Of a stretch of DNA of 64,000 bases, positions 7,156-46,311 are shown piece by piece. Position 1 is the stretch's first letter; every line of letters starts with the position of its first letter. The translations under genes and the position numbers were made by a program. The notes beneath the pieces are model-generated. The model ran no database searches. It was not told the DNA's origin and was given only the letters and a program-made list of their open reading frames with translations. Source of the stretch: a virus. The stretch lies in the IMG/VR virus record IMGVR_UViG_3300045988_089178. One strand, 5' to 3'.

Positions 7156-7845
7156 ATGGCTAAGAGTTCTAAAAGATTAGGTAATGCCACTTTTGTCCAG
7201 TATGGATATGGTCAAGTGGAGCCAAACCATCTTTCCGCTCCAAGAAATGGTCAAGTATATGCTCAGCTTCCCGCAGCTAGCACTATTGAGATTCTTGAGA
7301 ACGGTCAATTTGTAAAGTATAATTATGCAAAAGGCGTATGCGATTTTAGTACAGAAGCTACTTCTGGCGCTTGGATGATGGTGTTTAATGAAGTAAAGAT
7401 TTATAGAGATCGCGAAACTGACGCTGATTTTGCTATGATTAAGGATAATTATAATGCTCGTGTATATAGTCCAATTGGACAAACAGTTTCTACACTTGCT
7501 ACAATAAGTGATTATACCGGAGAAGCTGTACGCGAAGGTAGTGATGTAGCATATAAGAAAAATATGGAGACATTTACTTATCCTGCATTGATGCCAGAAG
7601 GAACTAAAATGGTACCTCGCGTAATTAAGATTAGTATTGGTGATATTTGGACTACTAATACCATTAAGGCTAATGCTGGAGAACTTGCAGTAGGCGATCG
7701 TCTAAAGATTGATACTGATGGATATTTAACTAAAGATACTGAAACTTCTGCTAAAGGTGGAGATTTAGATCCTATCTTTGCAGTAGTAAAAGTGTATACT
7801 ATGCCAGATCTTCAACCTGGTGTAAAAGTACAGCGTGTAGGTTAA
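7156..7845 (+). CDS. hypothetical head protein (decoration-protein position between scaffold and MCP); no TAG
   Basis: Intact 229-aa track ORF with SD AAGGAGG; gene order as in lambda C-Nu3-D-E. Confidence 0.4.
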   Translation: MAKSSKRLGNATFVQYGYGQVEPNHLSAPRNGQVYAQLPAASTIEILENGQFVKYNYAKGVCDFSTEATSGAWMMVFNEVKIYRDRETDADFAMIKDNYNARVYSPIGQTVSTLATISDYTGEAVREGSDVAYKKNMETFTYPALMPEGTKMVPRVIKISIGDIWTTNTIKANAGELAVGDRLKIDTDGYLTKDTETSAKGGDLDPIFAVVKVYTMPDLQPGVKVQRVG

Positions 7846-7864
7846 TTGGAAGGAGTGAAGAAGA

Positions 7865-8917
7865 ATGTTAGATAAAGCTAATTTACTTAGTTTAATGAAA
7901 ACTGTCGCTAATGCAAATCCTTCTGGTACCTATAGCTATCAAGGAGAGTCTTTTAGCTATGACGCTTTAAATACCACTTTGCGTAATGAGCTAAATGAAT
8001 TTGTTGGCACAGATGAACTTTATAGAGAAAATAAAAATACTCTATTCTCTTTAATTGAGCAGACTATGGATGAAGTTGTTCCTAATCGTTTACTCAATTC
8101 TTATGGCAATTTTGCTGAGATTAGAACTTTCGCACAAGGCGACAAGCCTGTATTTACTCGTAGAACTGGACTTACTCGCGCTAAGCAATTCATTACTCGT
8201 GTGGGGCTTGCTGGTGTGTATGAGACCTTTAAGCTTGGTTCTGAGAGCTTCGAAGTTGGAACAAGCGCCATTGGTGGAGCTGCTCGTATCGGATTTGAGG
8301 AGTTCCTTGATGGAAGAGTAAACTTTGCAGAACTTACTCAAATTGTAACAGAGGGTATGCAAGAGCTTATTTATAGAGAGATTGCTCAAGCTCTTATGGG
8401 TTCTATCAATCAGCTTCCCGCGGCAAACCGTTGTGCTGTTGCTGGTTTTGACGAACCAACTATGGATTATCTTGTAAATACTGCTACTGCTTATGGTCAA
8501 CCAACTATTTATTGCACTCGTGAGTTTGCAGTAAAAATGATTCCAGATAATGATGCTTGGATTTCTGACAATATGAGAGATTAGTATTGGGGAACTGGTT
8601 ATCTTGCAAATTACAAGGGAACTAGAGTGGTAATTCTACCTCAAACTCTTGAAGATGAGACTAACTCCAAAAAGATGATTGATCCAGGTTATGCTTGGAT
8701 TATTCCTGGTGGAGCTGAGAGCCGTCCTGTAAAAGTTGCTTTTGAGGGTACTACCCACGTGCGCGAACGCGATGATAATGACGACTGGTCTCGTGATATT
8801 CAGGTTTACCGTAAGGTTGGTGTCGGTGTAATGATGGCGAATAACATCTTCTCTTATGTTGATACTGAACTTCAAGGCGAGCTTGATAATACTAACCCAA
8901 ATCCAAATAATGGTTAA
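7865..8917 (+). CDS. major capsid protein (lambda gpE-like), single in-frame TAG at 8582-8584
   Basis: Track ORFs 7865-8584 and 8627-8917 share a frame and are joined by one TAG; about 350 aa; followed by a strong terminator. Confidence 0.6.
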
Positions 8918-8922
8918 TTGAC

Positions 8923-8958
8923 AGGGGATAGGGAAATATCCCTATCCCCTTTTATTTA
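8923..8958 (+). terminator. rho-independent terminator after MCP gene
   Basis: 11-bp stem AGGGGATAGGG/CCCTATCCCCT, loop AAATAT, then TTTATTTATT. Confidence 0.7.
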
Positions 8959-8981
8959 TTGAGAAAAAGGAGATAAAAATT

Positions 8982-9515
8982 ATGAAAAATAGTTGCACTG
9001 TTTATAATAAGAGCGCAGGTCGTGTTGTATATAGATTGCCTGAATTGGGCGTGCGCCGTATGTTTTACCCTGGAGAACACAAGGAACTTGAAGTATCTGA
9101 ACTAGAAAAGCTAGTACAAACGCCTGGAGGCCGCAAATTAATTTATAATTACTTACTTGTAGATGATAGAGAGATTGTTGAATATCTTATTAATGGTAGG
9201 GTTGAACCAGAGTATTGGATGAAAGAAGAAGAGATTGATTCTTGGATGAATACGTGTTCTTTAGATGAATTTAAGGATGCTCTTGATTTTGCTCCAGAAG
9301 GCACTAAAGATCTGATTAAATCCCATGCTATTTCCCTTCCTTTAAATGATATGTCTAAAAGAGATGCTTTGGAAAAACAATTAGGATTTAATGTTACTAA
9401 AGCATTAGAATTAACAGCAGATGATAAAAAGAATCCTAAGGAAGAGAAACCTGTAAGAAGAGTGTCAACTACAAGTGAGGATGCTCCAAAACGCAGAGTA
9501 GCTATTTCTGATTGA
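8982..9515 (+). CDS. hypothetical protein, no TAG
   Basis: Intact 177-aa track ORF with SD. Confidence 0.5.
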   Translation: MKNSCTVYNKSAGRVVYRLPELGVRRMFYPGEHKELEVSELEKLVQTPGGRKLIYNYLLVDDREIVEYLINGRVEPEYWMKEEEIDSWMNTCSLDEFKDALDFAPEGTKDLIKSHAISLPLNDMSKRDALEKQLGFNVTKALELTADDKKNPKEEKPVRRVSTTSEDAPKRRVAISD

Positions 9516-12665: not shown

Positions 12666-14057
12666 ATGCGTTTTGGTATTCGTGAGATTTGCGATGTAGT
12701 ACTTCGTGCCAAAAGCTATCAGACTTTAGGTAATCGTAAGTTCTATAAAAATGAACCAGTTTTGTACTTTGACACTTTAAGAACCTCTACTCTTGAAGGT
12801 GCTGCAACAACTGTATACGCACAGGGCGGACGTGGATATACTAGATTGATTGCTTGGGAAGGTGAGCGTACTCTAACATTTACAATGGAAGATGCTTTAC
12901 TTTCTCCAGAGAGCTTCTCTATTCTTTCTGGTGCAGGTCTGCTTGATGCAACAAAAGAAGCTCCAATTTACGTTCATCAAACTTCTCAGGTAGAAGTTGA
13001 AACAGCTAACACTATCGTGATTCCTGATAAAGCTTGCTGGAATGGATTTGCAGATCATGAAAATGAAATGTATCATCGTTCTGCTGACATTTTTGTAATG
13101 GTATTAGGAGATGATGGTCAAGTTAATGCTGAACCATGCATTCCTGTTTCTGTTTCTTATACAGAGGACGGAAAATCAACTTTAACTTGCTATTCTCATG
13201 CGGGAGTGCTCCCATCTGGTACTATCGTTTTAGTTGACTATTATGTAAAGCGCACTGGTGGCGCCCAGATGATTGAGATTACCGCTGATAAGTTTGGTGG
13301 AAATTATTATCTTGAAGCTTCTACTCTATTCCGCCGTGAGAGCGATGGCGTAGATATGCCTGCTGAATTTATTATTCCTAACTGTAAGGTTCAGAGTAAC
13401 TTCACATTCAGCATGGCTGCTAACGGTGATCCATCTACCTTTACATTCACAATGGACGCTTTCCCAGACTACACTAAGTTTGATCAAACTCATAAAGTTC
13501 TTGCCGCTATTCAGGTAATTACTGATGAAACTGGGGAAACCGAAGGATCTCGTGAGCCATGCTCTGAGAATGTTGGTACTTATGAGAGTGAAGCTGCTGA
13601 TGTAACTGTAAATTTTGTTTCTAACAGTGCCACAGAGGCGGAACTTGATGTAACTGGTACTGTAACAGGAAAGGCTTATGATACTGAGGCTTATGGAGAT
13701 ACAATTCCAGAAGCCGCACAAATTAGCCTCCAAATTCCAGTAGAGAGCGATAGTACCAAGTATACTGTAGTAACAACTAATCCAGCATATGAGAAATACT
13801 TCTCTACTGATGACCGTATTGAGGGCAATACAAAGACTCAAACCGTAGATGGCGCAGAATTGGCAGATGGCCTATTAGTAATTCTTACTAAGGAGAGTAA
13901 TACAACTCCTATTACAGCTAAGATTACTAAGATTAACGGAGACTTTGAGAAGAGTTATACTATTAATAACAAGCTCAGTTTTGCAGAAAGCACAAGCACT
14001 TATTCTGGCGCAAAAATGCGCAATAAGTTAGTCTCTGTTAGCGATGACACCATTTAA
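12666..14057 (+). CDS. major tail protein (tube or sheath-like, C-terminal Ig-like region); no TAG
   Basis: Intact 463-aa track ORF with strong SD; TAG-free inside a TAG-dense operon; followed by strong terminator; position between neck genes and tape measure. Confidence 0.5.
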   Translation: MRFGIREICDVVLRAKSYQTLGNRKFYKNEPVLYFDTLRTSTLEGAATTVYAQGGRGYTRLIAWEGERTLTFTMEDALLSPESFSILSGAGLLDATKEAPIYVHQTSQVEVETANTIVIPDKACWNGFADHENEMYHRSADIFVMVLGDDGQVNAEPCIPVSVSYTEDGKSTLTCYSHAGVLPSGTIVLVDYYVKRTGGAQMIEITADKFGGNYYLEASTLFRRESDGVDMPAEFIIPNCKVQSNFTFSMAANGDPSTFTFTMDAFPDYTKFDQTHKVLAAIQVITDETGETEGSREPCSENVGTYESEAADVTVNFVSNSATEAELDVTGTVTGKAYDTEAYGDTIPEAAQISLQIPVESDSTKYTVVTTNPAYEKYFSTDDRIEGNTKTQTVDGAELADGLLVILTKESNTTPITAKITKINGDFEKSYTINNKLSFAESTSTYSGAKMRNKLVSVSDDTI

Positions 14058-14063
14058 TTTTAA

Positions 14064-14098
14064 GGGAGGACTTAATAAAGTCCTCCCTTTTTCTTTTT
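14064..14098 (+). terminator. rho-independent terminator
   Basis: Stem GGGAGGACT/AGTCCTCCC, loop TAATAA, then TTTTTCTTTTT. Confidence 0.7.
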
Positions 14099-14116: not shown

Positions 14117-15559
14117 ATGGATGTTAATATTTATGATTATGTATAGCGTTGGTCTTTAAATTATATTGTTTATCATAGTAGTCATTTAAGAGAATATGGA
14201 GATGTAGAGTCCGCAAATATTCTCTTTAGTGGATAGTATCAAGAGGCAATGAGTAAAATGAAGACTGCGGGAATTGAGACTTAGATTGCATCAATTCAAG
14301 AATAGATGCAATCTAAGGGTCCAGTTGCCGCGAGCGGATTGAGAGTTTTAAGTGATTTATAGATTGGTACCTTATTGGATTCTACTCTTGATTAGATCGC
14401 GGCAGGTATCAATGAAGGAATTGAATTAGCCGGTGGATAGGTAAATTTTGAGAATTATAATACTATATTACAATAGGCTGGCAATTTTAATAATTTGTTG
14501 GCTAATGGGGCACCTGATATAAAAAGAGTTAATGATTTTTTTAGATTATTGATATAGGCTCTTATGAAAGCCAATATGATAAATGTCAATGTTCTTGATG
14601 CTTTAGCCTAGATAGGAAGATCGCTAATTGGTACTAGTTTTTAGATAGATAATTCTTAGCAGCACTATGTTATGTCCATTGAAGATGGGGATATCAATGT
14701 AGCGAAAGAAGTAATAGATTCGTTGAGTAGAGCGGTTTCAAGATTAAATGAAGGTGGAAGTGTAAACTCTAGATCTTTTGCTAATACAATATCATATATT
14801 TTTAGAAAAGTTATTGGAAATTAGATTAGTCAAGCTATAGTCGCAGAAGGTATATCTATTGGAATTAATACTGCGGATAGTATATTAGATACTGCTATTA
14901 AGTAGTCTGGTGGAAAATTAAAGTGGGTTGATAGAGGATAGAATACTACTTCTGACAATGGAAGTAGAGGTGCTGTTAAAGTTTTTAATAATGATGTTTT
15001 TAATTTGTCAGTAACTAAGGGTAATCAAGTATTTAATATAGAAATTAGTGCTAATGTTAATGCAAAGTGGTAGAATAAAAAGAAATCTGCAAATAGAATT
15101 TAGGTTTTTTCAAATATGAATGTAGGGGATTATTTTTCTGGTTAGCCAGAAAAATATCTTGCTTATAATATGATTGCTCATAGATTCACTGGATCAGATT
15201 TTGAAGAATCTTTTAATAATATTCGTGCATCGGTAGCCGCCTCATTTTTTAATGAATGGGTTTCTTCTGGCGGTCTAGCTTCTTCTAAAGGACATCTTGG
15301 TCAGTTACTTATTGTTAATGGTAAAGTTTTTTCTATTTAGCGTATTATAAATAATATTTGTGATGACATAGTTCGCAATAGCGGTCATGAAATAGTTTCT
15401 ATTGGGGGAGAAAATTCTACTGGTAATAAGTGGTATGGAAATACTGGTCCAAATGTATTAGACGCTTTAACTCGTAGTAATATAGTTAATGAAGTTATAA
15501 GTAAATTAACAATTTCTGCTACATTAAACAATAATATATTGTCTAAATACGCATATTAA
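14117..15559 (+). CDS. hypothetical structural protein, extremely TAG-dense (about 38 in-frame TAG in 480 codons)
   Basis: SD AAGGAGATATAGGAG plus ATG 14117; single frame open to TAA 15557-15559 only if TAG is sense. The track reports no ORF of 60 aa or more here. Confidence 0.4.
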
Positions 15560-15563
15560 AAAC

Positions 15564-15592
15564 TTGACAATAGTTAATTTTTCTAGTATAAT
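15564..15592 (+). promoter_or_regulatory. consensus sigma70-type promoter TTGACA-17 bp-TATAAT
   Basis: TTGACA at 15564-15569, 17-nt spacer, TATAAT at 15587-15592, 32 nt upstream of ATG 15625. Confidence 0.65.
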
Positions 15593-15624
15593 AAAAATAT
15601 AAATGAGATAAAGGAGTTTTTACA

Positions 15625-16164
15625 ATGAGTGAAATTACTTTTAAAGATTTGGGTTTGGAGCCTAAAATTAAATATACAGAAGTAAAAATTGGAGAAGATA
15701 AGATTTTATCTGTGGTTAATTATCTTCCGATTGCAGATAAAACAAATCTTATTACTTTTGTCGCAGATTTAGCGATAGATGAGATGACTGGGTGTTTTAG
15801 TCCGGTAAGAGTAGAAACTTATTTTGCTATTGCTATTTGCAGATGGTATGGTGGAATTGTTTTTGAGCAAGAAGATGTGCATGAAAATATTGCCAAAACT
15901 TATGATACACTAGAGACTAATGGTGTTATTGATGCAGTTAGAAGTGCTATTCCAGTAGATGAATTGTCTTTTATTGAAGACTTAGTTAGAGATACTTTAA
16001 GCGATATAGCAAGATATAATAACTCTGCCGCAGGCATTATCCAAATGATGAATAAAAATGCTTCTGGATTAGATACATATATTACTGATATAATGGAAAA
16101 AATTAAAAATGGTGAGAATCTTGAAACTTTATCAGTAATTAAAGATGTGGTTGGAAAAGATTAA
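15625..16164 (+). CDS. hypothetical protein, TAG-free, own promoter and terminator (moron-like; occupies tail-assembly-chaperone position upstream of tape measure)
   Basis: Intact 179-aa track ORF with SD AAAGGAG; flanked by the consensus promoter and a strong terminator. Confidence 0.6.
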   Translation: MSEITFKDLGLEPKIKYTEVKIGEDKILSVVNYLPIADKTNLITFVADLAIDEMTGCFSPVRVETYFAIAICRWYGGIVFEQEDVHENIAKTYDTLETNGVIDAVRSAIPVDELSFIEDLVRDTLSDIARYNNSAAGIIQMMNKNASGLDTYITDIMEKIKNGENLETLSVIKDVVGKD

Positions 16165-16203
16165 TAAATCTAATATAATTTACAAATTAGATAGAGAATT
16201 AAA

Positions 16204-16244
16204 AGGCTCTTGAGATATAATTCTCAAGAGCCTTATTTGTTTTA
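16204..16244 (+). terminator. rho-independent terminator
   Basis: Stem GGCTCTTGAGA/TCTCAAGAGCC, loop TATAAT, then TTATTTGTTTTAT. Confidence 0.7.
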
Positions 16245-16269
16245 TGGGTGATAAAGGAGGAAAAGGATT

Positions 16270-19200
16270 GTGGCTAATAATAGAAGATTAAATTATTAGA
16301 TTGGGTTTGATGTTGATACTGCTGAACTTTACAGAGCAGTAAACGAGGCAGTTCAATCTTTAAATAAAATCAGTGCCGGTTCTAAAGTTACAGCAGAATT
16401 GCGACAAGCTTCTTAGTCTGCGCTAGAGTTATCTACTTATATGCATTAGGCATTTAATCAAGGGACTGGAAAGTTAGATTTAGTAGCTTTTGAAAATAGT
16501 TTAAAATCTAGCGGAAGAACTCTTAAAGATTATGCCAACTCGTTAATTTCGATTGGTACCGAGGGGCAAAAGGCTTTTTTAAATGTAGCAACAGCGATTC
16601 AAAAAGCGGAGCTTCCAGCATTGCGCACTGGCAAAATATTTGATTAGTTATGGATTACTATGAAAAATACTATGAGATGGCAGATTACCTCCACCGCGTT
16701 AAATAGTTTTGTGGGAACCATAGAATCAGCTTATGGGTATGCACAAGATCTAAATGAATCATTAACAAATATTCGTATAGTTACTGAAAATTCTGCGGAA
16801 GACATGGCTAAATTTGCTCAATAGGCAAATGAAGCAGCAAAAGCATTAAGTACAACTACTGTTGAATATAGTGATGCTGCTTTGATTTATTATCAATAGG
16901 GTCTTACTGAATAGGAAGTTTTAGATAGAACTGAAACTACTATTAAAATGGCTAATGCCGCAGGAATTAGTGCATAGACCGCTTCGGATCAGCTGACCGC
17001 AGTTTGGAACAACTTCTATGATGGAAGTAAGAGTCTTGAATATTATGCTGATGTAATGGTGCGTTTAGGCGCCGATACAGCGTCTAGCTCTGATGAAATT
17101 TCAGAAGGTATCCAACAATTTGCCTCTGTAGCAGATACAGTTGGATTAAGTTACGAATATGCTGCTTCTGCTCTTGCTACTGTCACTGCTACGACACGTG
17201 AGTCTGCTAATGCAGTAGGTACAGCATTTAGAACTTTATTTGCTCGTATCCAAGGCTTAAATCTTGGAGAAACTCTCGATGATGGCACTACATTAAATAA
17301 ATATTCTAAAGCTCTTGAAAAAGTGGGTATTGATATTTTTGATGTTAATGGTGAGATTAAAACTATGGATACCTTACTTGATGAAATGGGTTCAAAATGG
17401 GAGACCTTATCTAATGACTAGTAGATTGCTTTGGCTTAGACCGTAGCCGGAGTTCGCCAATATACTCGTCTTATTGCACTTATGGATAATTGGGATTTCT
17501 TTTAGGAGAATTTAGCTAGTGCTTATGGAGCAGAGGGATCTCTTTAGGAACAGGCAGATATTTATGCTGAATCTTGGGAAGCTGCTAGAGATAGAGTAAA
17601 AGCATCTGCTGAGGATATTTATGATAGTGTCATAAATCCAGATTTGTATATAAATGCAGATAATGTCTTAACTCCATTTTTATCTGGTATTGCAGACGCC
17701 ATTGATGCAATGGGAGGGTTAAATGGTATTTTAGCTAGTACCGCTTTGTTGATTAATGGGATTTATGGAAATAAGATTGCTGAATCAATGCGTTCTATGG
17801 TGGCTAATATAAAAGTTCTATCTGGATTAGAGTAGAATAGAGCGAGAAATTTGTAGGCATCAGCGGCTGAGATAGCAACTCAATTAGGCTTAACAAACTC
17901 TATGTCTTAGGCTGAAAAAAATCTTTTTAATATTATGGTTGACTAGGCTAATATATAGGGCCAAATAAATAGTAACTACGACGCGATGGATGCTAATGGT
18001 CGTAGATTAATTTAGACAGAACAGTTAAAATTAAGTATTTTGCAAGATTAGTTAAAGACATATTCTTAGTAGTAGATTTAGTCTAGGGAAAATGTATTAA
18101 ATCTTAGAGATACTATTTATTTTAATATAGGAATAAAAGATGGCTGGCAAGAAGAAGTTAAAGCAGAAATAAATAAATTTAATAGTAGAAATAAAAGTAA
18201 TCAAATTTAGTTAAATATAAGAGCTAATAGTAACCTTGATAAAATTTATAATGATGTTACTACTTAGTTAACTAGTTTAATTTAGCAATCTACAAAACTT
18301 GATACAGTGTATCAAGAATTTAAAAAACTTGAAAGCGCTGGAACTGCGACTAGAGACAGCCTTCGTAATTTATTATCTAGTGTTACGGGCAAAGAACATA
18401 ATTATGCTTAGATTGAATGGCTGACTTAGCAATTAGAGGGGTTAAAAAATTAGTCTCAAAATGCAAAATTGCAAATTCGTGAACTTGGGACTATTTTATA
18501 GACTATGGGAGCCGATCCAAGAGTAGTTACTTCTTATATTAATGAATTAACAAAATTGGAGTCTGTTACTGCAAGAACAACTGAACAAGAGGCTCGATAT
18601 TAGGAATTGTTAGCGAAGTTCCCTAGTGTAATTACAAAAGCATTAATACCAACGAGAGATTGGGCTACAATATTGGTTTAGGTTGGAAGTTCTCTTTCTA
18701 GTTTAACTATGATTATGAATGCTTTTTAGAGCATTGGAAGAATTTTTTCTGATGAAGATATGACTTCAACTGAAAGAATTGTAGCTTTGTTTACTTCTCT
18801 TGGTATGTTACTACCCTCTATTATTTCTGTTTATAAAACTTTAAATATGTTAACTACTGCTCATGCTGTTGCAGCAGCGGCGGACGCCGCGGCAACATCA
18901 GTAGAGGCTTTAGCGACAGAATAGCTTGCTATGGCGAAGCAGAAAGCCGCTATGGCTTCCGGCATCTTAACTGCTGCAATTATGGTAGCAATAATAGCGA
19001 TTACTGCAATAACAAGTGCTATAAAAGCATAGCATGAAGCAACCTTGGCTGCTGCTTAGGCCTCTATTGATGCGGCAAATGCAAAAAAAGAAGAAGCACA
19101 AGCGAATAGAGAGTTAATTCAATCTACTCAAAATGCCTTATCTACTTATCAAGAAACTGGGGATGGAAAAGAAGAGTTAGATGATTTAACTCGTTAGTTG

Positions 19201-22200
19201 GCTGAAGCGTATGATTTAGAAGGCAGTGCATTAGCTAGACTAAGTGGATAGTATGAAGATTATAATAGTGTTTTAAAAGCTGCTCAAGAAGCTCAAAGAA
19301 GAGAACTTTAGGAAACTTTGTAGTCCCAAGAAGAAGCGTTACGTGCGAATGAAACTCTCATTCTTGAAACCGCGAGAGAGGGCGTGGGCCACGTATATTT
19401 TGGTGGAAATTATGAGGGGTCTTTTACTGGTTTTAATGATTTTTGGAATGGCACCGAAGAAGATACTGCATCTAATATTCTTCTCAATAATGTGGACGCT
19501 TTATATAGTAGTTGGAATGACAATGTAATTGGCGGAAGAAGAAACTTAGCTTTTTCTATAGACCCAAATAATACAGAAGAATTAATTAATTTTTATGATC
19601 AATTAAATAATGCTATTAATTTGATGAATAATAGCATGACTGTTTCGGAAAGAGGAGCATCTGGACTTTACAATGCTGCTGTTGAGTGGCGAGATAAAAT
19701 GGAAGAGGTTGTCACTCAATATAAAGAAACTAAAGAGAGTATAAATGCTATTCGGGTATAGCTTGGAGAGTTTAATAATTAGACTATTACCGATGATCAA
19801 GTATCAAGTTTAGCGTAGTATAAAATTTGGGTTAACGAAGTTACAGAGGCGCTCACTTCTGCTGGATATGAAGGCGAAGAATTAAACGATATAATCAATG
19901 ATTTAGTATCTACTTCTCTGAATCCTGATATTAGTGGCTTTAAAGATATTTATGACGCAATTTTAGAGGTTGAAGAATTAGTCAATGATGAAGAATTAAA
20001 AAGTAATCTTGAATCTATTTTTACAGATGAAAATTATGATACTTCTGTATTAAATTTATTAAATTGGGGTGCTTTAACATAGGAGACTTTTTAGGATGCC
20101 TATGACAGTGCTAAAAAATATACTGATGCTATTTCCGAAGTTGAAAACGCAACAGAATCTTTAACTACTGCACAATCTGCCTTAGAAACTCTTGGAGATA
20201 GAGATTTAGATCGAGAAGGATTAGAATCACTTTCTAAAACTGTTGATTGGGGAAATCAAGAAAAAGGAATTATTGATTTTAATTAGTTCCTTGCTATGAC
20301 TTTAGTTGAACAATAGAGTTATTTATAGAGGATTATAAATGAGTCCTATTAGGCTGTCAATAATGGATTAATAGATTAGATTAGTGAAGCAAAAAAGAGA
20401 ATAACTGAGCAATAGGATATTTTAAATCAATATAGCGATTCTGAATTAGAACGTGCAGAAAAAGTTGTTTATGCTTGGGAACAAGTTCGAGAAGCGTATA
20501 ATGATTATCAAGGTAGCTTAAATGGCGGAGAAGAATTTAATCTTGATAATTATACGATTGATTGGGATTTGTTAGGTGAAAATTTTGATTGGGAATCTTT
20601 TAAAACCGAAACTGCGGATAACGTAGCTAGTGCATTTGAGTATGGGACAAAAGAAGCTCAAGATAAAATTGATACTGTAACTTTAGCAGAGTAGCTAATT
20701 AGTAGTTTATAGGATGATATAGATTCTAGCACAGCTTAGTTACAAATAAATGCAGAATTAAATTTTTAGAATCAATTAGATTAGATTGAAAATTCCGTTG
20801 ACGGAATTGTAAGTGTATTCGATGCTATTTCTGATGGAGTAAGCTAGACTACCAATGAAGCTGGAGAACAAGTTTGGAGTTTTAGTAGAGAAGCAGCTAA
20901 GGCTATTGAATCTATCTATCCAGGTTTTATAGCTAACGCGGAATTATTAAGGGATGGTACATTTGCTTTAACAGATGAGATGTATCAAGCATTTTATAAT
21001 AGTTCTTAGGGGCAATTAGCTGTTGATGCTGATACCAAATCTAATATGCTTCAAAATCTTATTTCTCTTTTAGAGGCTAAACGAGGAGAGGCTGAAGCTT
21101 CGCTTAAGATCGCTGATCAGCTAGCTTCTGGAGAATTAACTATAAACGAATTATCAGATGAGCAGAAGAGAACTTTATTAGCGGGATATGTAAATGCTTA
21201 GAATCTTGCTAATGGAGAAATGTTAGATGATTAGGTCAATAGTTTAACCGCACAAGATACAAATTAGTAGACTTTATGGACTAATGTTAGCGAGTATTCT
21301 GCTTAGGGCGCGCAGAACATGAGTACTAATGTATAGTTAAATACTCAAAATGTTCTTGCTAATCTTGAAAAAATTAGAGATGCGGCATATGCTACTGGAA
21401 TTCAAGTATCTCAAATAGGAACTGATAATGTTACTAAGCAAGATTTTGATACTTCTGCTGTTTCTTTTGATAGTTCGGCTGCAACAACAATAGATACGAG
21501 TAACGCTAATGATTTCTTAAATTCTTTAACTGCAAATTTAGATGTAGAACCTGTAACCGCAGACGATTTAAATATTTATGGTGATGCTAGTGAGGCACTT
21601 GAAGCTAAGCAATCTTAGGCAGTTGGAGAAGCGCTAAGGGCCATTTATTAGGGGAGTATTGATGGGTATAATGAGGCTATAGCAGCAGCAAAAATAGCCT
21701 AGAGCAAATTATTAGATTCTATTGATGGAGCTATAGAAGGGGTAAAGGGAAGTTCAAGTGGCGGAGATAATGAAGGCACTAAGTATGACGAAGAAGATGA
21801 AAAGACTCTAAAGGATATTGAAGATAGATACCATGAAATAACTCGCGAAATTGAGAATTAGAACGATTTATTAGATGATATTGGAAATAATATAGATAGA
21901 GCCTATGGCGCCAATAAACTTCAAGCATACTAGAGAGAACTTCAAGAATTAGAGAAATAGCAAGCTAATTATAACAAACTACTTAATGAAGCTGAAACTT
22001 ATCTTACAAAAGACTAGGCAGATCTTCAAGGGTTGTTTAATAATTCTCTTATTTTTGATGAAAATGGAGAAATTGAAGGTTATCAAAGTGTTCTTCAATC
22101 TATAATAGATGATTATAATAATAATTTCTTGGCAGATTATAATGCTTTTTTAGTTACCTTTAGTAATCTTACTAAAGATGAATAGGAAGCTAGATAGGCA

Positions 22201-24996
22201 GAATATGATAGTTGGCAGTTACAAAAGGAAGCTGCTGATGAATTATTCCAAGCTCGTTAGGATGCTCTCGCCCAATATGAAGAAACTCTTGACAAAATTC
22301 AAGAAGTAAAGGATGAATAGGAAGAACTAGAGAGAAGCATCGCAGACAATAGATTGAGCTAGATTGAATATAAACTTGAAGTTGTAATAGAAATAAAAGA
22401 TGCTAAAGATGCTGTTCGTGAATTAACTAAAAAGATTGCAGAATCATTTGGCGATGAATTAACTCATGGTATTGAAGTCGCTCGTATTGATGAAAATAGT
22501 GTGAACGAAAATATAAAAATAATCAAGGATTATGAAGAAACACTTAAAAGTTATCAAGAAGAATTGGCTAACGCAACGGATGCGACTGATATTGATGGAA
22601 TTATAAGTAAAATATCTGATTTATAGGGTAAAATAATTTCTACCGCAGAAGCTCTACTTGATTGGGTAGAGGGTCTTGAAGAAATGTTGCCAAATGCATT
22701 AGACGCTGCATCTGAAAGATTCGCTGAATTTACTGATCAACTTGACCATAATGAATCAGTTCTTGGACTTATAAAAGAATTGTATACACTTTAGGGGGTT
22801 ACATATAAAACCGAAGAAGGATTTGAATAGCTCCAAAAAGTAAGCGAAGAAACAATGAAAGCTCAAATAGCAAATGCGCAGTTAAATAAATAGTGGTACG
22901 ACGGTATTAAATAGGAACTTTTAGAAGCTTAGAGTGCGTTAGATGCGTTAGACGGCGATGAAACAGATCCGGCATATGATGGTTTAAAAGCTAATCGAGA
23001 TGCATTATTAGAAGAATATAATGAAGCTCAATAGGCGATGTTAAGTTCCGCGCAAGCCGCTATGGAAACTGCACAAGAGATGTATACTTAGGCTATTGAA
23101 AGAGCCGTATACGAATTTGGATAGGCGGTTTCTGGCGGAGTTGGCTTAGATTTGCTACAAGACAAGTTCGATCATTATATTGAGCAAGAAGATAGATATT
23201 TAGATAAAGTAAATGAAGCATATGAAGTATCTTCTTGGTATAATAAACTTCAATAGGATATTGATAAAGCCACTAATTCTAAAATGAAAGATTAGTTGAA
23301 ATAGTTACAAGAAGAAATTGATATTCGTAGAGAGAATAATACTTTATCTGAATATGATCTAGAAATTCTTGAAGCTAAGTATAATGTTCTTTAGGCTTAG
23401 ATGGCTCTTGAAGATGCTCAAAATGCAAAGAATCAACTTAGATTAGTAAGAGATAGTCAAGGTAATTGGAATTATCAATATACCGCAGATGCGAGTTAGA
23501 TAGCAGATGCGGAATAGAATTTACTTGATGCAGAGAATGAATGGTATAATATAGCTAAACAATAGGTTGAAGATGTTACTGGAGAAATTATTTCTACTTG
23601 GCAGGAATGTCAGGATAAAATAAAAGAGATTTATTCTGATATGACCTTGACTGATGAGGAAAGATCTGCCCGCGCGCAAGAAATCTATTCTTATTATACG
23701 CAGAAGGTTAAGGATCTAGAGAACGAAAAACAGATCGCTATTTAGGATATGACCGAAGCCGGTAATAAAGCCTTAATTGATATGGCTATTGTTGCGGGAG
23801 ACGAGGTAAGTGATCTAACTGGAATTACAAGTCAAGAAATTCAGGATATTATAGCCAACTCTGGCTCTAGTATTATTGATTTGTTATTATCCGATAATGA
23901 ATAGATTCAAGATATAGTTGGAAGTAATACAAAACTTATTGATTTATTTGATAATGTTTTTGCAAAAGATCTTGCTAATATGACTTCTAATGCTGGAAAT
24001 TTTGAAGATTTTCTATCTAAAGCCATGGACGAAGCAAGTGAAGCAATGGAAGATTATCAAACTACTGTCTCTGGAGTGGCTGATTAGACTGGAACAAGCC
24101 TTGATGATTTAGAAGGTTATCTTGATGATGTTACAACTTCTACAGAGTTATGTTCTGATGCGGGATCAGAAGCTGTCACTTAGATGTTAGAATAGATAAG
24201 CACTATTCAAGATTTAAGTCAAGAATATTTAGACATGGCTGAATCAGTTAGAGAATATATAAGGGCTCTTGAGGAGGCTGCTAGAGCAGCTGGAAATACA
24301 ATAGAAAGCGCTGGAGGAATAGATAAAGATGATTTACCTCCCGCTAATTCAGATCAATCTTCTGATAATAACTCTAGCAATAGTAATAGCGGATCTTCCA
24401 GTGGAGGGGCTGGAAGTGGCAATGGAATCCCAGAAGTAGGAGACGAAGTCATTTATACTGGTGGAACTTATTATCATGATTCTTATGGCACAGATCCAGC
24501 AGGTAGACGTGGACCCGGTAAGAAAGTTAAAATAACTAATATAGCTAAAGGCAGACCATATCCGATTCATGTATAGTCTAATAATTCTGCATATGGCTGG
24601 TTAAAAGAAAGTCAAATAAGCGGATTTGATACAGGAGGTTATACTGGAGAATTTGATAATGCTAAATTAGCTTTCTTACACGAAAAAGAGTTAGTTTTAA
24701 ATCAAGAAGATACGAAAAATATTCTCGCGGCGGTTTCTGCTATAAGAGCTTTTGAACCTAGTTTTATAGCTTCTATAGAGAAAGCGCTTGATGGAAATGC
24801 ACTATCTATTTCTAATCTTATGGCATCAAGATTAGGATCTAATACTTAGATTACTCCAGCAGATAACACAGTTGAACCGTATATAAATATTGAGCGAGTT
24901 GAGTTCCCAAATGCGACATCTTCTGATGAAATTCAAGATGCTATTCGTAGTTTAGCTGATGATGCTACTCAATGGGCAAATAGAAGAAAGGGATAA
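16270..24996 (+). CDS. tail tape measure protein, about 2908 codons, with roughly 150-250 in-frame TAG
   Basis: Track ORFs 17056-17421, 17644-17835, 19384-19761 and 24235-24576 all lie in one frame that stays open from GTG 16270 (SD AAAGGAGG) to TAA 24994-24996 when TAG is sense. Ala/Gln/Glu-rich coiled-coil composition with a hydrophobic segment near 18.8-19.0 kb; 12 TAG in a sampled 160-codon stretch. Confidence 0.65.
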
Positions 24997-38732: not shown

Positions 38733-39372
38733 AGTTTAATTCAATAGCTTTTAATTTATCTATTGAATCAGCTTCGAATATCTAAGTTTTATATTCTTGC
38801 ATTAAATGATATTTGGGATATACCACATTTAAAATAGCTAAACTTAGAGCGGATAATTGCTCTAAACTCCATGGCACACATTCTTCGTGTCGAGCGTGCC
38901 ACTCAAGCGTAGGATTTTCTACTTCAGCCGCGAGAGCGACTTGATATTGATTGAGATTTAAGCTAATCTCAGACTGGTCCTCCTACGTAATTCCATATTC
39001 TTTTCCATCAACCCAAGTTAGTGGGTGGGTAGCAAGATACTCTGCGAATAGTTTCTTGTTTTCCTCTTGTTTGTCATACTTTGCCTAATCTAAATCAGAA
39101 GTGAATGTTCCATCTTCTTGATTATATATTGAATAATTAGGAGTAACATCTGATGGAATTGTTTCTATCTCTAATACTTTTACAGCATTAGATTGATTTA
39201 ATACATCGGCTTTAATTAGAGTATAATGTGTATCTCCATTTGAGCCGATAACCCCAGTTCCCTCTTCTTCCTCGCAGGCAACGACAATACCATTTGAGGA
39301 TTGCAGTTTAATGTAACGTGCTTCTGAAAGAATATCAACTACTACATTCTCTCTATTTAATAGAATATACAT
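38713..39372 (-). CDS. hypothetical protein, 3 in-frame TAG
   Basis: SD AAAGGAG plus ATG 39372 forming a TAATG overlap with the extended RT stop; track ORF 39085-39372 continues through TAG 39085-39087 to TAA 38713-38715. Confidence 0.4.
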
Positions 39373-40589
39373 TACTTTATTTCAACTCCTTTAAATAATG
39401 AACGAAAATAATTGTCCATATCTTGAATTATATAAAAACAAGTTCCTTTAGAAATATGTGCCCTCCAACCTTGATAGGATTTCTAAATTTCATCTGTTGA
39501 AATTTTACCCTCTAGCCATAGCGCTTGCATTTTCTTTAACTTTCTGCGCTAATGAGCCACTTTCTTTTTAAAAGGAATTTGTATTATATGATTAGTGTCT
39601 GTGAGATAAAAGTTCCACTTTAAGTATTTTAATGGAGCGTGACGTTTGCCGTCCGCGTGAATAGGAGAGATTCTAGTAATAGTAGTCTTTTTCTTATTCA
39701 TCTTTAATCCTTGCTTATTTAAGCGAACTTCTATTCTCTTTTCACATTCGGCTAAGTATTGACTGTCATTGTGGAATAAATATAAATCATCCATATAACG
39801 ACCATAATACTTAATATGTAACTCTTCTTTGATGAAGTGGTCAATTTCGTTCAATGCTAGCAATGCGAATAATTGTGATGTTTGACTTCCTAATCCAAGA
39901 CTTTTATTATCATATTCATAGTATTTGCGGCCAGGCTTGAAATTAGTGGTATTAATTCTCGTGTATTTGTGCCGTTTACTAATATAATAATCTTTCCCTG
40001 GTATGGGAGAGGAATCTTTTGTTAGCTTAAAAGAAAATGTATCTATTAAATAACAGCATAGCTGATAAATTCTTTTATCTTTTATCAAACGTTTAGCCGC
40101 TTTCTTTAAAGATTTATGGTCAATAGAATCAAAATATTTTTGAATATCAATTCTTAACCCATAAAAATCTTTTCCTAATCCATATTCTCTATGAGCTTGT
40201 TGAAGGTGTTTCTTTACTCTTTTTAAAGCAAAGTCTATTCCTTTTCCTCTTAAAGTCGCACAATTATCGTAGATAAATCTAGGAGTTAATTCTGGTAATA
40301 AAACTTGTTCACATAACGCATTTTGTACCAGTCTGTCGTTGATATGACACGCTCTTATGTCTCTTGGTTTGCCTCGTTCGATTATCGAAAAACAACTAAA
40401 CACAAGCTATTCGTATTCACACGCTCGCAGATCAGCTTCTGTTTTTAAAATTGTTTCTATCCTATTCTCTTCAAAATTAATTGTACTATCTTTCCATCGA
40501 ACGTTTCGACATACCTTATAAGACGCATCATACATAGCGTCAAAACTACAAAAACGCTCGAAAGCAGTATCTTGGTTTATTTCAGACAT
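39372..40589 (-). CDS. diversity-generating retroelement reverse transcriptase. Contains an internal TAG (40407-40409) and a TAG at 39549-39551 that, if read through, extends the protein 58 aa to TAA 39372-39374
   Basis: RT motifs: KPRDIRACHINDRLVQNAL (motif 1), FIYDNCATLRGKGIDFAL (motif 2), GSQTSQLFALLALNEIDHF (motif B), YGRYMDDLYLF (motif C, YxDD). Track ORFs 40407-40589 and 39549-40403 share a frame and are split only by TAG. SD AAGGAG before ATG 40589. Immediately downstream of the TR. Confidence 0.85.
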
Positions 40590-40895
40590 ACTTTCTCCTT
40601 ATCATGTAGCTATAGTGGTAGCTACTCGAGCTCCACGTCTACAGTCTTACTTTATCCACTTTTTCAGTGAAATGGTTAAGTTCTCCTTAGATGAAAAGGC
40701 AGATCTACCTATAGTATATTATTCGATAGTTGTAGAGCAAAGCTCTTTAACGGTCTCTCAATCTCTTCCCCACATAGTGGGTGCAATCCAGAGTAAACCT
40801 TAATTAGATGGATAATAATATACTCCGGGGTACTATTTAGGCGTTGCTCGTTTGCGCTGCTCCGCAGCTTAACTCGCAACATGATAGCTCCATCT

Positions 40896-40998
40896 AAGCC
40901 GGCGCCAGCCCGTTGCTGTTGTTGTAGTTGTTGTTGTTCGCAGATCCATCGTTGTTGACATTGCAAACGTTGTTCGAGTTGTTGTAGTTACGGGACCG
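40896..40998 (-). repeat. DGR template repeat (TR), about 103 bp, AAC-rich on the - (sense) strand; non-coding
   Basis: Matches 41619-41721 at 88-90 of about 101-103 positions; every mismatch sits where the TR has A on the - strand. In the VR reading frame it reads RSRNYNNSNNVCNVNNDGSANNNNYNNSNGLAP (13 AAC codons); lies between avd and RT. Confidence 0.85.
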
Positions 40999-41028
40999 AA
41001 AGATACAGAACTTAACCGCAGAAAAATA

Positions 41029-41523
41029 TTATCGACCTCTCCTATGGGTTTTAGGAGCCGAATATCTATGCTCGACTATAAGTTTATCTCTATTTTTTCT
41101 ATCTTGGATTGATTCTTTTACTTTCTTAGTCAATCTAGCTAGATGTTCAAAAGATCTTCTTTTCTTTTTGCTGTTTTGAGCATACTAATAAATACATAGG
41201 TCGATTTGTCGAAATATACTATCACAATATTCAATCGCTTTATTGTGATATTCATTTCTTTTTGTAAGGGTTTCTTTATCTTTTAAGTTTATCTTACACG
41301 CCTCATAGCAGCAAGCATGTATACCCTTTCCGCATTTAATTATATCGTACCCGAACGCTTGAAGAGGTTGACCCTCTCCAAGCAGTCCAGGTTTGCAGAT
41401 TTGTTTTCCATCCTTATCAAATTCTCTAGGACGAGTTAAGACTAAAATGTAGCCAACCAATTCACGGGCTTTATAAAGACAGTCTTGTTTTGATAGGTGT
41501 CTATCCTTTACTTTTACAGACAT
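41029..41523 (-). CDS. avd: DGR accessory variability determinant (Avd-like small basic helical protein). 112 aa to TAG 41185-41187, or 164 aa if TAG is read through to TAA 41029-41031
   Basis: Small basic ORF (track 41185-41523) located between target-VR and TR exactly as in canonical DGRs. The extension ends 31 nt before the TR. Confidence 0.6.
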
Positions 41524-41604
41524 TTAAAATTTCCCTCACTTGAATATATAATTTTTTTATTGGACAATTTAACCTTAACTGTCCCGAATTGTTATTTTGC
41601 TGTA

Positions 41605-43362: not shown

Positions 43363-43482
43363 ATTGTTTACCTCCTTCTATCTAGCTATTGCTATAAACA
43401 AATCTAAATTACTAGATAGAAGGTCGAGGATGGAAGCGATCTTCGCTCCAGTCTTTTAGAAAGTCATTAACAATTTCCGAGA

Positions 43483-46175: not shown

Positions 46176-46204
46176 TATAATGGGGTTACTATGCCCCATT
46201 ATAT

Positions 46205-46270
46205 TTTTATACTAAAATTGGCAAAAATTTTGGCAAAATAGTAAAATTATCTTTGCCAAAATTTTATATA
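46205..46270. promoter_or_regulatory. second cluster of TTGGCAAAA / TTGCCAAAATTTT motifs downstream of the holin-like gene
   Basis: TTGGCAAAAATTTTGGCAAAAT at 46217-46238 and TTGCCAAAATTTT at 46253-46265; related to the 45040-45100 cluster in direct and inverted orientation. Confidence 0.4.
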
Positions 46271-46311
46271 ATAATGAAAGGCCAAGGGAATATTTTAAAG
46301 GAGGTAAAACT

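What the first reader, a model, noticed from the sequence alone, without database searches (positions are those of the whole stretch)
15560..16245. TAG-free gene with a textbook sigma70 promoter and its own terminator embedded in the TAG-dense late tail operon
TTGACA-17 bp-TATAAT (15564-15592) is a perfect host-type consensus promoter. It is followed 32 nt later by a 179-aa ORF with a strong SD, and then by an 11-bp-stem terminator (16204-16244). The upstream neighbour has about 38 TAG codons and the downstream tape measure roughly 200, yet this gene has none. A self-contained, suppressor-independent transcription unit in the tail-chaperone position looks like a moron or early-expressed gene, for example an anti-defence, superinfection-exclusion or lysogenic-conversion function. 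At the least it is a tail assembly chaperone uncoupled from late regulation. No recognisable -1 frameshift partner (G/GT-type) is evident downstream before the tape-measure start.
Basis: partly seen in the sequence, partly recalled or inferred. Interest (0 to 1): 0.7.

Follow-up and report, generated by a model that had tools for sequence, protein, structure and literature searches.

The report
Self-promoted, TAG-free tail gene cassette
A gut phage that reads the TAG stop codon as glutamine keeps one small tail-assembly gene free of TAG and gives it its own host-type promoter and terminator, probably so that a helper for its giant tape-measure protein is made abundantly whether or not TAG is being suppressed.

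Summary
A 12/12 TTGACA-17-TATAAT promoter (15564-15592), a Shine-Dalgarno site, a 179-aa TAG-free ORF (15625-16164) and a 13-bp terminator hairpin (16203-16234) form a self-contained unit between a TAG-rich 480-aa gene and a 2908-aa tape measure gene. It is not chance. All but the most distant relatives, down to about 37-42% protein identity, keep the promoter, and those whose downstream DNA is on the contig keep the hairpin, with compensatory changes. TAG makes up 3 of 140 glutamine-type codons in this gene, against 47% in the upstream gene and 27% in the tape measure gene.

The gene is not an acquired moron. It is a core gene of SPbeta/EF1-like long-tailed siphoviruses (YomO-like, phrog_30570), with local GC content, no membrane segment and no defence-family match. 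It always lies between the tube and tape measure genes.

The best reading is a frameshift-less tape-measure chaperone or assembly factor. It would be supplied in excess by host RNA polymerase and translated without suppression, and the terminator would insulate the tape measure gene. The tube gene and the capsid gene also avoid TAG, so abundance is as good an explanation as early timing.

The parts
15564..15592 (+). Sigma-70/SigA-type promoter: TTGACA (15564-15569), 17-nt spacer, TATAAT (15587-15592). It starts 4 nt after the upstream gene's stop codon.
   Evidence: 12/12 match. A promoter of at least 10/12, with a 17-nt spacer in nearly every case, is kept in 27 of 28 distinct flanks 25-38 nt before the ATG and in most of the further metagenome lineages. 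It persists where the surrounding intergenic sequence, or even the upstream gene, differs (L084). See alignment A2.
15610..15616 (+). Shine-Dalgarno site AAAGGAG, 8 nt before the start codon.
   Evidence: Read from the sequence. The core AAGGA is invariant and AAAGGAG nearly invariant across the 13 lineages of alignment A2.
15625..16164 (+). 179-aa TAG-free gene of the YomO-like / phrog_30570 family. It is an acidic, soluble, mainly helical protein and the probable tape-measure chaperone or assembly factor.
16192..16199 (+). Invariant TAGAGAAT motif, 3 nt upstream of the terminator stem. Its function is unexplained.
   Evidence: TAGAGAA is invariant in alignment A3 and present in 24 of 28 distinct flanks. 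Most variants are A-to-G only, with one G-to-T exception (L082). GAGAAT is the reverse complement of the invariant ATTCTC in the 3' arm. The motif is not enriched elsewhere in the window.
16203..16247 (+). Intrinsic terminator: 13-bp stem (16203-16234), 6-nt loop, interrupted U tract (16235-16247). It looks bidirectional.
   Evidence: The hairpin is kept in relatives with compensatory stem changes.
14117..15559 (+). Upstream neighbour: a 480-aa gene of unknown function in which 19 of 27 Gln-type codons are TAG.
   Evidence: No PHROG or Pfam match.
16270..24996 (+). Tape measure protein gene: 2908 aa, GTG start, 101 in-frame TAG. There is no promoter of its own between the terminator and its start.
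   Evidence: Relatives carry PF10145 PhageMin_Tail. No promoter match of 11/12 or better lies between the terminator and the start.
12666..14089 (+). Tail tube gene (463 aa, YomU-like, 0 TAG among 12 Gln codons) and its own terminator hairpin (14062-14089). This is the comparison case for TAG avoidance in an abundant late protein.
   Evidence: phrog_2729. (PF27173 YomU_Tube in relatives).. (TAG-free in 9 of 10 recoded lineages examined).

Best explanation
The unit is a conserved, autonomous expression cassette for a core tail-assembly gene of a TAG-recoded, roughly 146-kb SPbeta/EF1-like siphovirus of gut Clostridia.

Shown: a consensus host (SigA-type) promoter, a strong ribosome-binding site, a TAG-free 179-aa gene and a hairpin terminator are kept together across all but the most distant relatives. 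The gene always sits between the tail tube gene and the giant tape measure gene.

Inferred:
1. The protein is the tape-measure chaperone or assembly factor. It would be the functional counterpart of lambda gpG, HK97 gp13 and SPP1 gp17.5, but without a frameshift partner.
2. Many copies are needed per 2908-aa tape measure protein. The phage therefore boosts the gene with an internal promoter read by unmodified host RNA polymerase. It also keeps the gene free of TAG, so its yield does not depend on the presence or efficiency of amber suppression. The tube and capsid-position genes are kept TAG-poor in the same way.
3. The terminator confines promoter-driven transcription to this one gene. The TAG-dense tape measure gene and about 22 kb of distal tail genes, which have no promoter of their own, are reached only by transcripts that read through. 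These would be leaky termination products or antiterminated late transcription.

The net effect would be a pool of chaperone available in excess of, and possibly ahead of, its slowly translated, suppression-dependent client.
For: Cassette anatomy.

Not chance: 2 perfect promoter matches in the window against 0.27 expected. In related loci of 8-12 kb, the only 12/12 promoter is the one before this gene.

Conservation:
- Promoter in 27 of 28 distinct flanks, and in most of the further metagenome lineages.
- Terminator kept with compensatory stem changes.

TAG avoidance:
- 3/140 Gln-type codons in this gene, against 344/730 upstream and 674/2480 in the tape measure gene.
- It holds in lineages that lack the promoter (L039, L092).
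- The tube gene shows the same signature, TAG-free and CAG-enriched.

Core tail-module membership:
- Neighbours are YomX/W/V/U-like plus PhageMin_Tail.
- The homologue lies directly after the tube gene in Enterococcus phage VRE9_2 (hhalign probability 99%).
- SPbeta YomO is the only one of 5 SPbeta tail-region proteins tested to score against the family HMM (19.6 bits).

Chaperone-like features:
- Position immediately upstream of the tape measure gene.
- Size: SPP1 gp17.5 is also 179 aa.
- Acidic and soluble.
- Several weak BFVD hits labelled tail assembly chaperone.

No promoter lies between the terminator and the tape measure start.

HK97 has an analogous layout: tail gene, terminator, chaperone, moron, terminator, tape measure gene.
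Against: The chaperone identity is not demonstrated.
- No Pfam or PHROG chaperone family matches. Only 2 of 140 family members hit Phage_TAC_19, at E 0.02 or weaker.
- hhalign against SPP1 gp17.5 and HK97 gp13 is null.
- Foldseek against the PDB finds nothing.
- The defining -1 frameshift is absent.

A second gene (480 aa, unknown function) also lies between the tube and tape measure genes.

No expression data exist. Promoter activity, timing and terminator efficiency are all inferred. High copy number is inferred only from the codon and terminator pattern. A few relatives do carry one in-frame TAG in this gene.
Confidence: 0.5

Rival explanations
1. The protein is an abundant structural or assembly component of the tail other than a tape-measure chaperone. 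It could be an internal tail protein, a tube-associated protein or a tail-completion protein. It would share the high-expression signature of the tube and capsid genes for that reason.
For: The other TAG-free late genes are the predicted abundant virion proteins. No chaperone family match or frameshift was found. The structural similarity to a chaperone is weak.
Against: The position directly upstream of the tape measure gene and after the tube gene is the canonical chaperone slot. The fold is small, helical and acidic with a low-confidence C-terminal tail. That is unlike the beta-rich tube, adaptor and completion proteins, which are encoded upstream as the YomX/W/V-like genes.
Confidence: 0.2
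2. The promoter is mainly an internal operon promoter that re-starts transcription of the distal tail genes after the strong tube-gene terminator. The hairpin, together with the invariant TAGAGAA motif, would be a regulated attenuator that meters read-through into the tape measure gene. On this view the 179-aa gene is just the first gene of that sub-operon.
For: No other promoter of 12/12 exists between 16235 and 38229. The only 11/12 match lies inside a gene at 26729. The tape measure gene and downstream essential genes must therefore be reached by read-through. The U tract is interrupted. The invariant TAGAGAA is complementary to the invariant ATTCTC at the top of the 3' arm. Two apparently compensatory changes (L037, L086) and three G.U intermediates (L044, L045, L081) were seen.
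Against: A re-start promoter would be expected right after the tube terminator, before the 480-aa gene, not after it. The local 13-bp hairpin should out-compete a 6-7-bp alternative helix unless a factor intervenes. The purine tract can equally pair with the U tract, as in bidirectional terminators. One lineage (L082) breaks the motif.
Confidence: 0.15
3. This is an early or lysogeny-expressed accessory function (moron-like: superinfection exclusion, anti-defence, lysogenic conversion) that only happens to lie in the tail module, as gp15 does in HK97.
For: It has moron-like architecture, with a promoter and a terminator inside a late operon. Its TAG-free coding is compatible with expression before the code switch. 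HK97 carries a moron at the equivalent site. Early-region promoters in the window are of the same SigA type.
Against: The gene is conserved at this position in every relative examined, across a family of 1445 clusters of fairly uniform length, including standard-code Enterococcus phages. Its GC content (30.7%) matches its neighbours. It has no membrane segment or signal peptide and no PADLOC or NCBIfam match. The phage contigs in MAGs are of whole-phage length, about 148 kb, with no sign of integration. TAG avoidance persists in lineages without the promoter.
Confidence: 0.07

Closest known systems
Tail assembly chaperones gpG/gpGT of lambda, gp13/gp14 of HK97, gp17.5/gp17.5* of SPP1
   Different: There is no -1 frameshift site or extension frame. 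There is no detectable sequence or profile similarity. The gene has its own consensus promoter and terminator. A 480-aa gene separates it from the tube gene.
SPbeta YomO (Pfam PF27287) and PHROG families phrog_30570 / phrog_7383, all uncharacterised
   Same: Family profile matches. A precomputed PF27287 hit on relatives of 56-59% identity. The same tail-module neighbourhood of YomX/W/V/U-like genes and the tape measure gene.
   Different: The link to SPbeta YomO itself is weak: 19.6 bits, but hhalign probability 2%. PF27287 is not in the local Pfam copy, so the window protein could not be scored against it. In SPbeta and the Enterococcus phages the gene has no comparable consensus promoter. 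No function is known for any member.
Morons of lambdoid phages, for example HK97 gp15 between the chaperone and tape measure genes
   Same: A promoter-gene-terminator unit embedded in a late operon immediately upstream of the tape measure gene.
   Different: Morons are accessory, patchily distributed and often compositionally distinct. This gene is core, universally present in its clade and compositionally native. This protein is soluble.
Gene-family-specific depletion or enrichment of recoded stop codons in alternatively coded phages (Borges et al., bioRxiv 10.1101/2021.08.26.457843) and the TAG-recoded Phassvirus group (PMC10607447)
   Same: TAG is read as Gln, the TAG codons are concentrated in structural genes, the replication genes are nearly TAG-free, and selection acts per gene family.
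   Different: Those papers stress timing of lysis and late genes. Here the TAG-free late genes are the presumably most abundant ones. One of them also has a conserved host-type promoter and terminator, which neither paper mentions in the passages I searched.

Membership tests
Tail assembly chaperone (gpG/gpGT type) | Gene located between the major tail/tube gene and the tape measure gene | tested here: met
   The order is tube 12666-14057, 480-aa gene, this gene, tape measure gene 16270-24996. In Enterococcus phage VRE9_2 the homologue directly follows the tube gene.
Tail assembly chaperone (gpG/gpGT type) | Programmed -1 frameshift near the 3' end giving a longer GT-type product | tested here: not met
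   Both alternative frames are closed by TAA/TGA at 16136-16211 and 16140-16176. There is no slippery heptamer in the 3' half, and a terminator follows.
Tail assembly chaperone (gpG/gpGT type) | Sequence or profile membership in a described chaperone family (Pfam Phage_TAC_*, PHROG chaperone families) | tested here: not met
   No hit for the window protein. Of 140 family members, only 2 hit Phage_TAC_19, at E 0.02 or weaker, and none hit a chaperone PHROG. hhalign against SPP1 gp17.5 and HK97 gp13 gave probabilities below 1%.
Tail assembly chaperone (gpG/gpGT type) | Chaperone fold (HK97 gp13-like) | tested here: inconclusive
Tail assembly chaperone (gpG/gpGT type) | Binds the tape measure protein, is required for tail assembly, and is absent from the virion | not testable with these tools
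   This needs genetics and biochemistry. The Enterococcus phage homologues are culturable models.
YomO family (PF27287) / phrog_30570 | Significant match to the family profile | tested here: inconclusive
   phrog_30570 at E 2.5e-6 over residues 1-160, and 133 of 140 family members hit it. PF27287 is recorded only as a weak precomputed hit on relatives and is missing from the local Pfam copy. SPbeta YomO scores 19.6 bits against the broad family HMM, but hhalign gives probability 2%.
Moron | Own promoter and terminator inside a late operon | tested here: met
Moron | Accessory gene: patchy distribution, insertion between conserved genes, often atypical composition | tested here: not met
   The gene is present at the same site in all related loci. 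The family has 1445 clusters. GC is 30.7%, against 31-35% in the flanking genes.
Moron | Expressed from the prophage, with benefit to the lysogen | not testable with these tools
   No expression data. No integrase or integration was seen. Contigs in MAGs are of phage length.
Sigma-70/SigA-dependent promoter | -35 and -10 hexamers with 17-nt spacing at the right distance and orientation, under purifying selection | tested here: met
   12/12 match. A match of at least 10/12, with a 17-nt spacer in nearly every case, in 27 of 28 distinct flanks and in most of the further lineages, while the spacer and flanks diverge. Activity itself was not tested.
Rho-independent terminator | GC-rich hairpin followed by a U tract, with the structure conserved through compensatory changes | tested here: met
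   13-bp stem and U-rich tail. At least seven sequence-distinct stems fold alike, at -16 to -25 kcal/mol. Termination efficiency was not tested.

The most novel reading that the evidence does not exclude
In this clade of TAG-recoded phages, TAG density may work as a translational rheostat for virion stoichiometry as well as a timing switch. High-copy proteins (capsid, tube) and the tape-measure helper are purged of TAG. Low-copy proteins such as the 2908-aa tape measure protein (101 TAG) are throttled by it. The helper would in addition be decoupled from the code switch at the transcriptional level, by a host-polymerase promoter and an insulating terminator. That terminator carries a conserved TAGAGAA/ATTCTC alternative-pairing element that could gate read-through into the tape measure gene. 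A more radical version, also not excluded, is that the YomO-like protein has an early role unrelated to tail assembly.
Probability: 0.25. Interest if true: 0.6.

Novelty: new variant of a known kind. Interest (0 to 1): 0.4.

Why it matters
Stop-codon recoding in phages is usually discussed as a timer that delays late and lysis proteins. This locus shows selection acting the other way inside a late operon. One small tail gene, like the tube and capsid-position genes, is kept free of the recoded codon across deep divergence. It has also acquired a conserved host-type promoter and an insulating terminator.

That gives three concrete, testable handles.
- On how recoded phages set protein stoichiometry.
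- On how a 2900-residue tape measure protein is chaperoned without the canonical G/GT frameshift.
- On the function of a large uncharacterised family (YomO / phrog_30570, about 1400 clusters), which also occurs in culturable Enterococcus phages and, distantly, in SPbeta.

If the protein turns out to be an ordinary chaperone with a booster promoter, the finding is a useful annotation but not a surprise.

Tried and rejected
- **Chance promoter.** Rejected by conservation. The second 12/12 match, antisense in the tape measure gene at 20360-20332, is not conserved in L001 and is probably chance.
- **Foreign or moron origin.** Rejected on distribution and GC content.
- **Defence or anti-defence.** PADLOC and NCBIfam gave nothing.
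- **Known RNA family in the unit.** Rfam gave nothing meaningful in 15400-16400.
- **Frameshift partner.** None. The 17-nt yomO/yomN overlap in SPbeta puts yomN in the +1 frame behind its own GTG, which does not have the register of a -1 G/GT-type slip.
- **Sequence links to solved structures.** None. The 'orange carotenoid-binding protein' label on a relative rests on an E 0.66 match and is spurious.
- **Foldseek.** The PDB search was null. The AFDB library was unavailable.
- **Profile comparison with SPP1 gp17.5 and HK97 gp13.** Null. The gp17.5 family was too shallow to build a profile, with only 4 homologues.
- **Homology of the 480-aa neighbour to the 452-aa pre-tape-measure protein of VRE9_2.** None.
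- **A similar conserved promoter before the TAG-free tube gene.** None.
- **TAGAGAAT as a repeated late-promoter motif.** Not enriched: 8 matches against 7.6 expected, and none of the others sits in an intergenic gap.
- **Suppressor tRNA.** None in the window.
- **Literature on YomO or SPbeta tail chaperones.** Nothing found.
- **Metagenome scan with the broad alignment A4.** It was repeated with A1.

Full report
**What the window is.** The window has 33% GC. Its + strand genes from 23 to 38229 become long ORFs only when TAG is read as sense. Standard-code ORFs of at least 100 aa cover 36% of the window length. TAG-as-sense ORFs, summed over all frames, come to 105%. In a relative, an in-frame TAG falls exactly on the family's conserved Gln of the AAGIIQ motif, so TAG means Gln. 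PHROG and Pfam matches give terminase, portal, a capsid-position gene, YomX/W/V-like proteins, a YomU-like tube protein and a 2908-aa tape measure protein. That is the order found in Enterococcus phages EF1/VRE9 and, more loosely, in SPbeta. The - strand half carries replication genes that are almost TAG-free, apart from the RecJ-like gene with 13 TAG (NrdD, helicase, a RecJ-like protein and a 1293-aa protein I read by eye as DNA polymerase III alpha). Related contigs are 140-150 kb long, come from human gut samples, and are binned with Oscillospiraceae or Eubacterium MAGs. The nearest described group is the TAG-recoded Phassvirus group (PMC10607447).

**Checking the observation.**
- TTGACA at 15564-15569, a 17-nt spacer, and TATAAT at 15587-15592.
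- 32 nt from the -10 hexamer to the ATG at 15625.
- AAAGGAG 8 nt before the ATG.
- A 179-aa ORF ending at 16164.
- A hairpin at 16203-16234 followed by a U-rich tract. The stem is 13 bp rather than 11.

The in-frame TAG counts of the neighbours were overestimated about twofold. They are 19 in the upstream 480-aa gene and 101 in the tape measure gene. A 12/12 promoter match is rare here: two in 64 kb on both strands against about 0.27 expected. Neither alternative frame stays open past the 3' end, and there is no slippery site there, so no G/GT-type product can be made.

**Is TAG avoidance meaningful?** In this one copy it is not, because the protein has only two Gln codons. Across the family it clearly is. 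In 28 distinct homologous genes, 3 of 140 Gln-type codons are TAG. The figures are 344 of 730 in the gene just upstream and 674 of 2480 in the tape measure gene. Further metagenome lineages carry 0 or 1 TAG. The avoidance persists in relatives at 25-28% identity that lack the promoter, and in one of them the terminator too.

The same signature is seen in the tube gene in nine of ten recoded lineages: no TAG, with CAG over-represented among the remaining Gln codons. In the window, the capsid-position gene (1 of 13) and a 229-aa head gene (0 of 8) also show it. The late region therefore has two codon classes, and the 179-aa gene belongs with the genes expected to be most highly expressed.

**Is the transcription unit real?**
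- Alignment of the upstream spacer from 13 lineages (42-100% protein identity) shows that the -35 and -10 hexamers, their 17-nt spacing and the Shine-Dalgarno site are the conserved blocks in otherwise diverged sequence.
- Over all fetched loci, 27 of 28 distinct flanks carry a promoter of at least 10/12, 25-38 nt before the ATG.
- In related loci of 8-12 kb it is the only 12/12 promoter.
- In one lineage (L084) the upstream context is entirely different, yet a 12/12 promoter is still present.
- The terminator is kept as a structure. At least seven sequence-distinct stems fold to hairpins of -16 to -25 kcal/mol, with compensatory substitutions.
- There is no comparable conserved promoter before the TAG-free tube gene. 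The promoter is therefore special to this gene. Terminator hairpins, by contrast, also follow the capsid-position and tube genes, and a hairpin without a + strand U tract follows the tape measure gene.

**What the gene is.** It belongs to a large family (1445 clusters at 50% identity), most members about 175 aa long. The family corresponds to phrog_30570 and phrog_7383, both of unknown function. Relatives carry a weak precomputed match to Pfam PF27287 'YomO'. That model is not in the local Pfam copy. A broad family HMM picks out SPbeta YomO at 19.6 bits, while four other SPbeta tail-region proteins score about 0. hhalign against the single YomO sequence does not support the link.

The homologue in Enterococcus phage VRE9_2 (hhalign probability 99%) lies directly after the tube gene and its terminator, without a consensus promoter. 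The protein is acidic (pI 4.4), has no membrane segment and has the GC content of its neighbours. It matches no defence or NCBI family. These facts exclude an acquired moron or a membrane exclusion protein of the HK97 gp15 kind, although HK97 does carry a moron at the equivalent site.

**Is it a tail assembly chaperone?** The position is the chaperone slot, and the size equals that of SPP1 gp17.5. An AlphaFold model built from 38 homologues is confident over residues 1-130 (mean pLDDT 82.5). It shows a beta-hairpin followed by helices, then a long C-terminal helix and a poorly predicted but highly conserved tail.

**How it most likely works.** Shown: a host-type promoter, a strong ribosome-binding site, a TAG-free message and a terminator are co-conserved around a core tail gene. 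No promoter lies between the terminator and the tape measure start.

Inferred: unmodified host polymerase can transcribe this gene at any time, and host ribosomes can translate it without amber suppression. The terminator stops that transcription from running into the TAG-dense tape measure gene. The tape measure gene and the roughly 22 kb of distal tail genes behind it must be expressed from transcripts that pass the hairpin, either by leakage or by antiterminated late transcription.

Because TAG avoidance is shared with the tube and capsid-position genes and survives in lineages without the promoter, its primary meaning is probably yield rather than timing. Each suppressed TAG would cost some full-length product. 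The promoter then adds a transcriptional boost and possibly a head start. A helper needed in many copies along a 2908-residue client fits this pattern. So, less well, does an abundant structural role.

**An unexplained element.** Three to six nucleotides upstream of the terminator stem, TAGAGAA(T/C) is invariant in nearly all lineages. ATTCTC at the top of the 3' arm is also invariant, even though its partner in the 5' arm varies between GAGA and GGGA. GAGAAT is the reverse complement of ATTCTC, so a 6-7-bp alternative helix that would undo the terminator is possible.
- Variants of the motif are A-to-G changes that keep pairing (L044, L045, L081).
- In two lineages the change is matched by a U-to-C change in the arm (L037, L086).
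- One lineage breaks the motif (L082).

Alternatively, the purine tract pairs with the U tract, as in bidirectional terminators. As my own speculation from general knowledge, it could instead mark an RNase processing site just upstream of a stem. The motif is not enriched elsewhere in the window. I could not discriminate between these readings.

**Comparison with what is known, and novelty.** Tail assembly chaperones, morons, partial terminators after major structural genes, and gene-family-specific depletion of recoded stops (bioRxiv 10.1101/2021.08.26.457843) are all known. I did not find the combination described: a core, frameshift-less chaperone-position gene in a recoded phage clade, kept TAG-free and equipped with a conserved consensus host promoter and insulating terminator. 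I rate it a new variant of a known kind, of moderate interest. Its main value is as a clean test case for how recoded phages tune expression, and as a first functional lead for the YomO/phrog_30570 family.

Noticed in passing
window 39372-43401 (- strand): A complete diversity-generating retroelement. The reverse transcriptase gene is at 39372-40589 (PF00078). The template repeat is at 40896-40998. The variable repeat is at 41619-41721, at the 3' end of a 598-aa Big_3/DUF6273 gene (41605-43401). All 13 mismatches between the repeats are A in the template repeat.
   Followed up: partly
window 20332-20360 (- strand): A second perfect TTGACA-17-TATAAT match, antisense inside the tape measure gene. 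It is not conserved in the 75%-identity relative L001 and is probably chance. If it were active, its transcript would run into the bidirectional-looking hairpin at 16203-16234.
   Followed up: partly
window 16192-16199 and 16219-16224; L037, L044, L045, L081, L082, L086: An invariant TAGAGAA motif lies just upstream of the terminator, and an invariant ATTCTC lies in its 3' arm. The two are mutually complementary. Two apparently compensatory variants and three G.U variants were seen. Possible readings are an antiterminator, a processing site or a bidirectional-terminator element.
   Followed up: partly
window 7156-9515 and 12666-14089: The other late genes avoid TAG: a 229-aa gene (0 of 8 Gln codons), the capsid-position gene (1 of 13), a 177-aa gene (0 of 2) and the tube gene (0 of 12). 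The capsid-position and tube genes are each followed by a strong terminator hairpin (8923-8950, 14062-14089). This suggests TAG density tracks expected protein abundance.
   Followed up: partly
L002, L013, L028, L032, L038, downstream of the tube gene: In these relatives the tube ORF is about 313 aa and is followed by roughly 100-170 nt before the next gene (in several cases before a terminator-like hairpin). In the window the tube protein is 463 aa. This may be a C-terminal extension made by frameshift or read-through in the relatives.
   Followed up: no
window 60495-62246 (- strand): The RecJ-like DHH/DHHA1 gene has 13 in-frame TAG, although it sits among almost TAG-free replication genes.
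   Followed up: no
L041 21317-22220 (SPbeta yomO and the ORF downstream): SPbeta yomO overlaps the next ORF by 17 nt. The downstream ORF is in the +1 frame with its own GTG start. This looks more like translational coupling than a -1 G/GT-type frameshift.
   Followed up: partly
window 46176-46311: An intergenic region with repeated TTGGCAAAA / TTTGCCAAAA motifs next to a TATAAT. It looks like an operator.
   Followed up: no
L036, L082-L085: A sublineage with almost no in-frame TAG in the tail genes still keeps the promoter and terminator around the YomO-like gene. Its tape measure region appears split into several ORFs under the TAG-as-sense reading.
   Followed up: no
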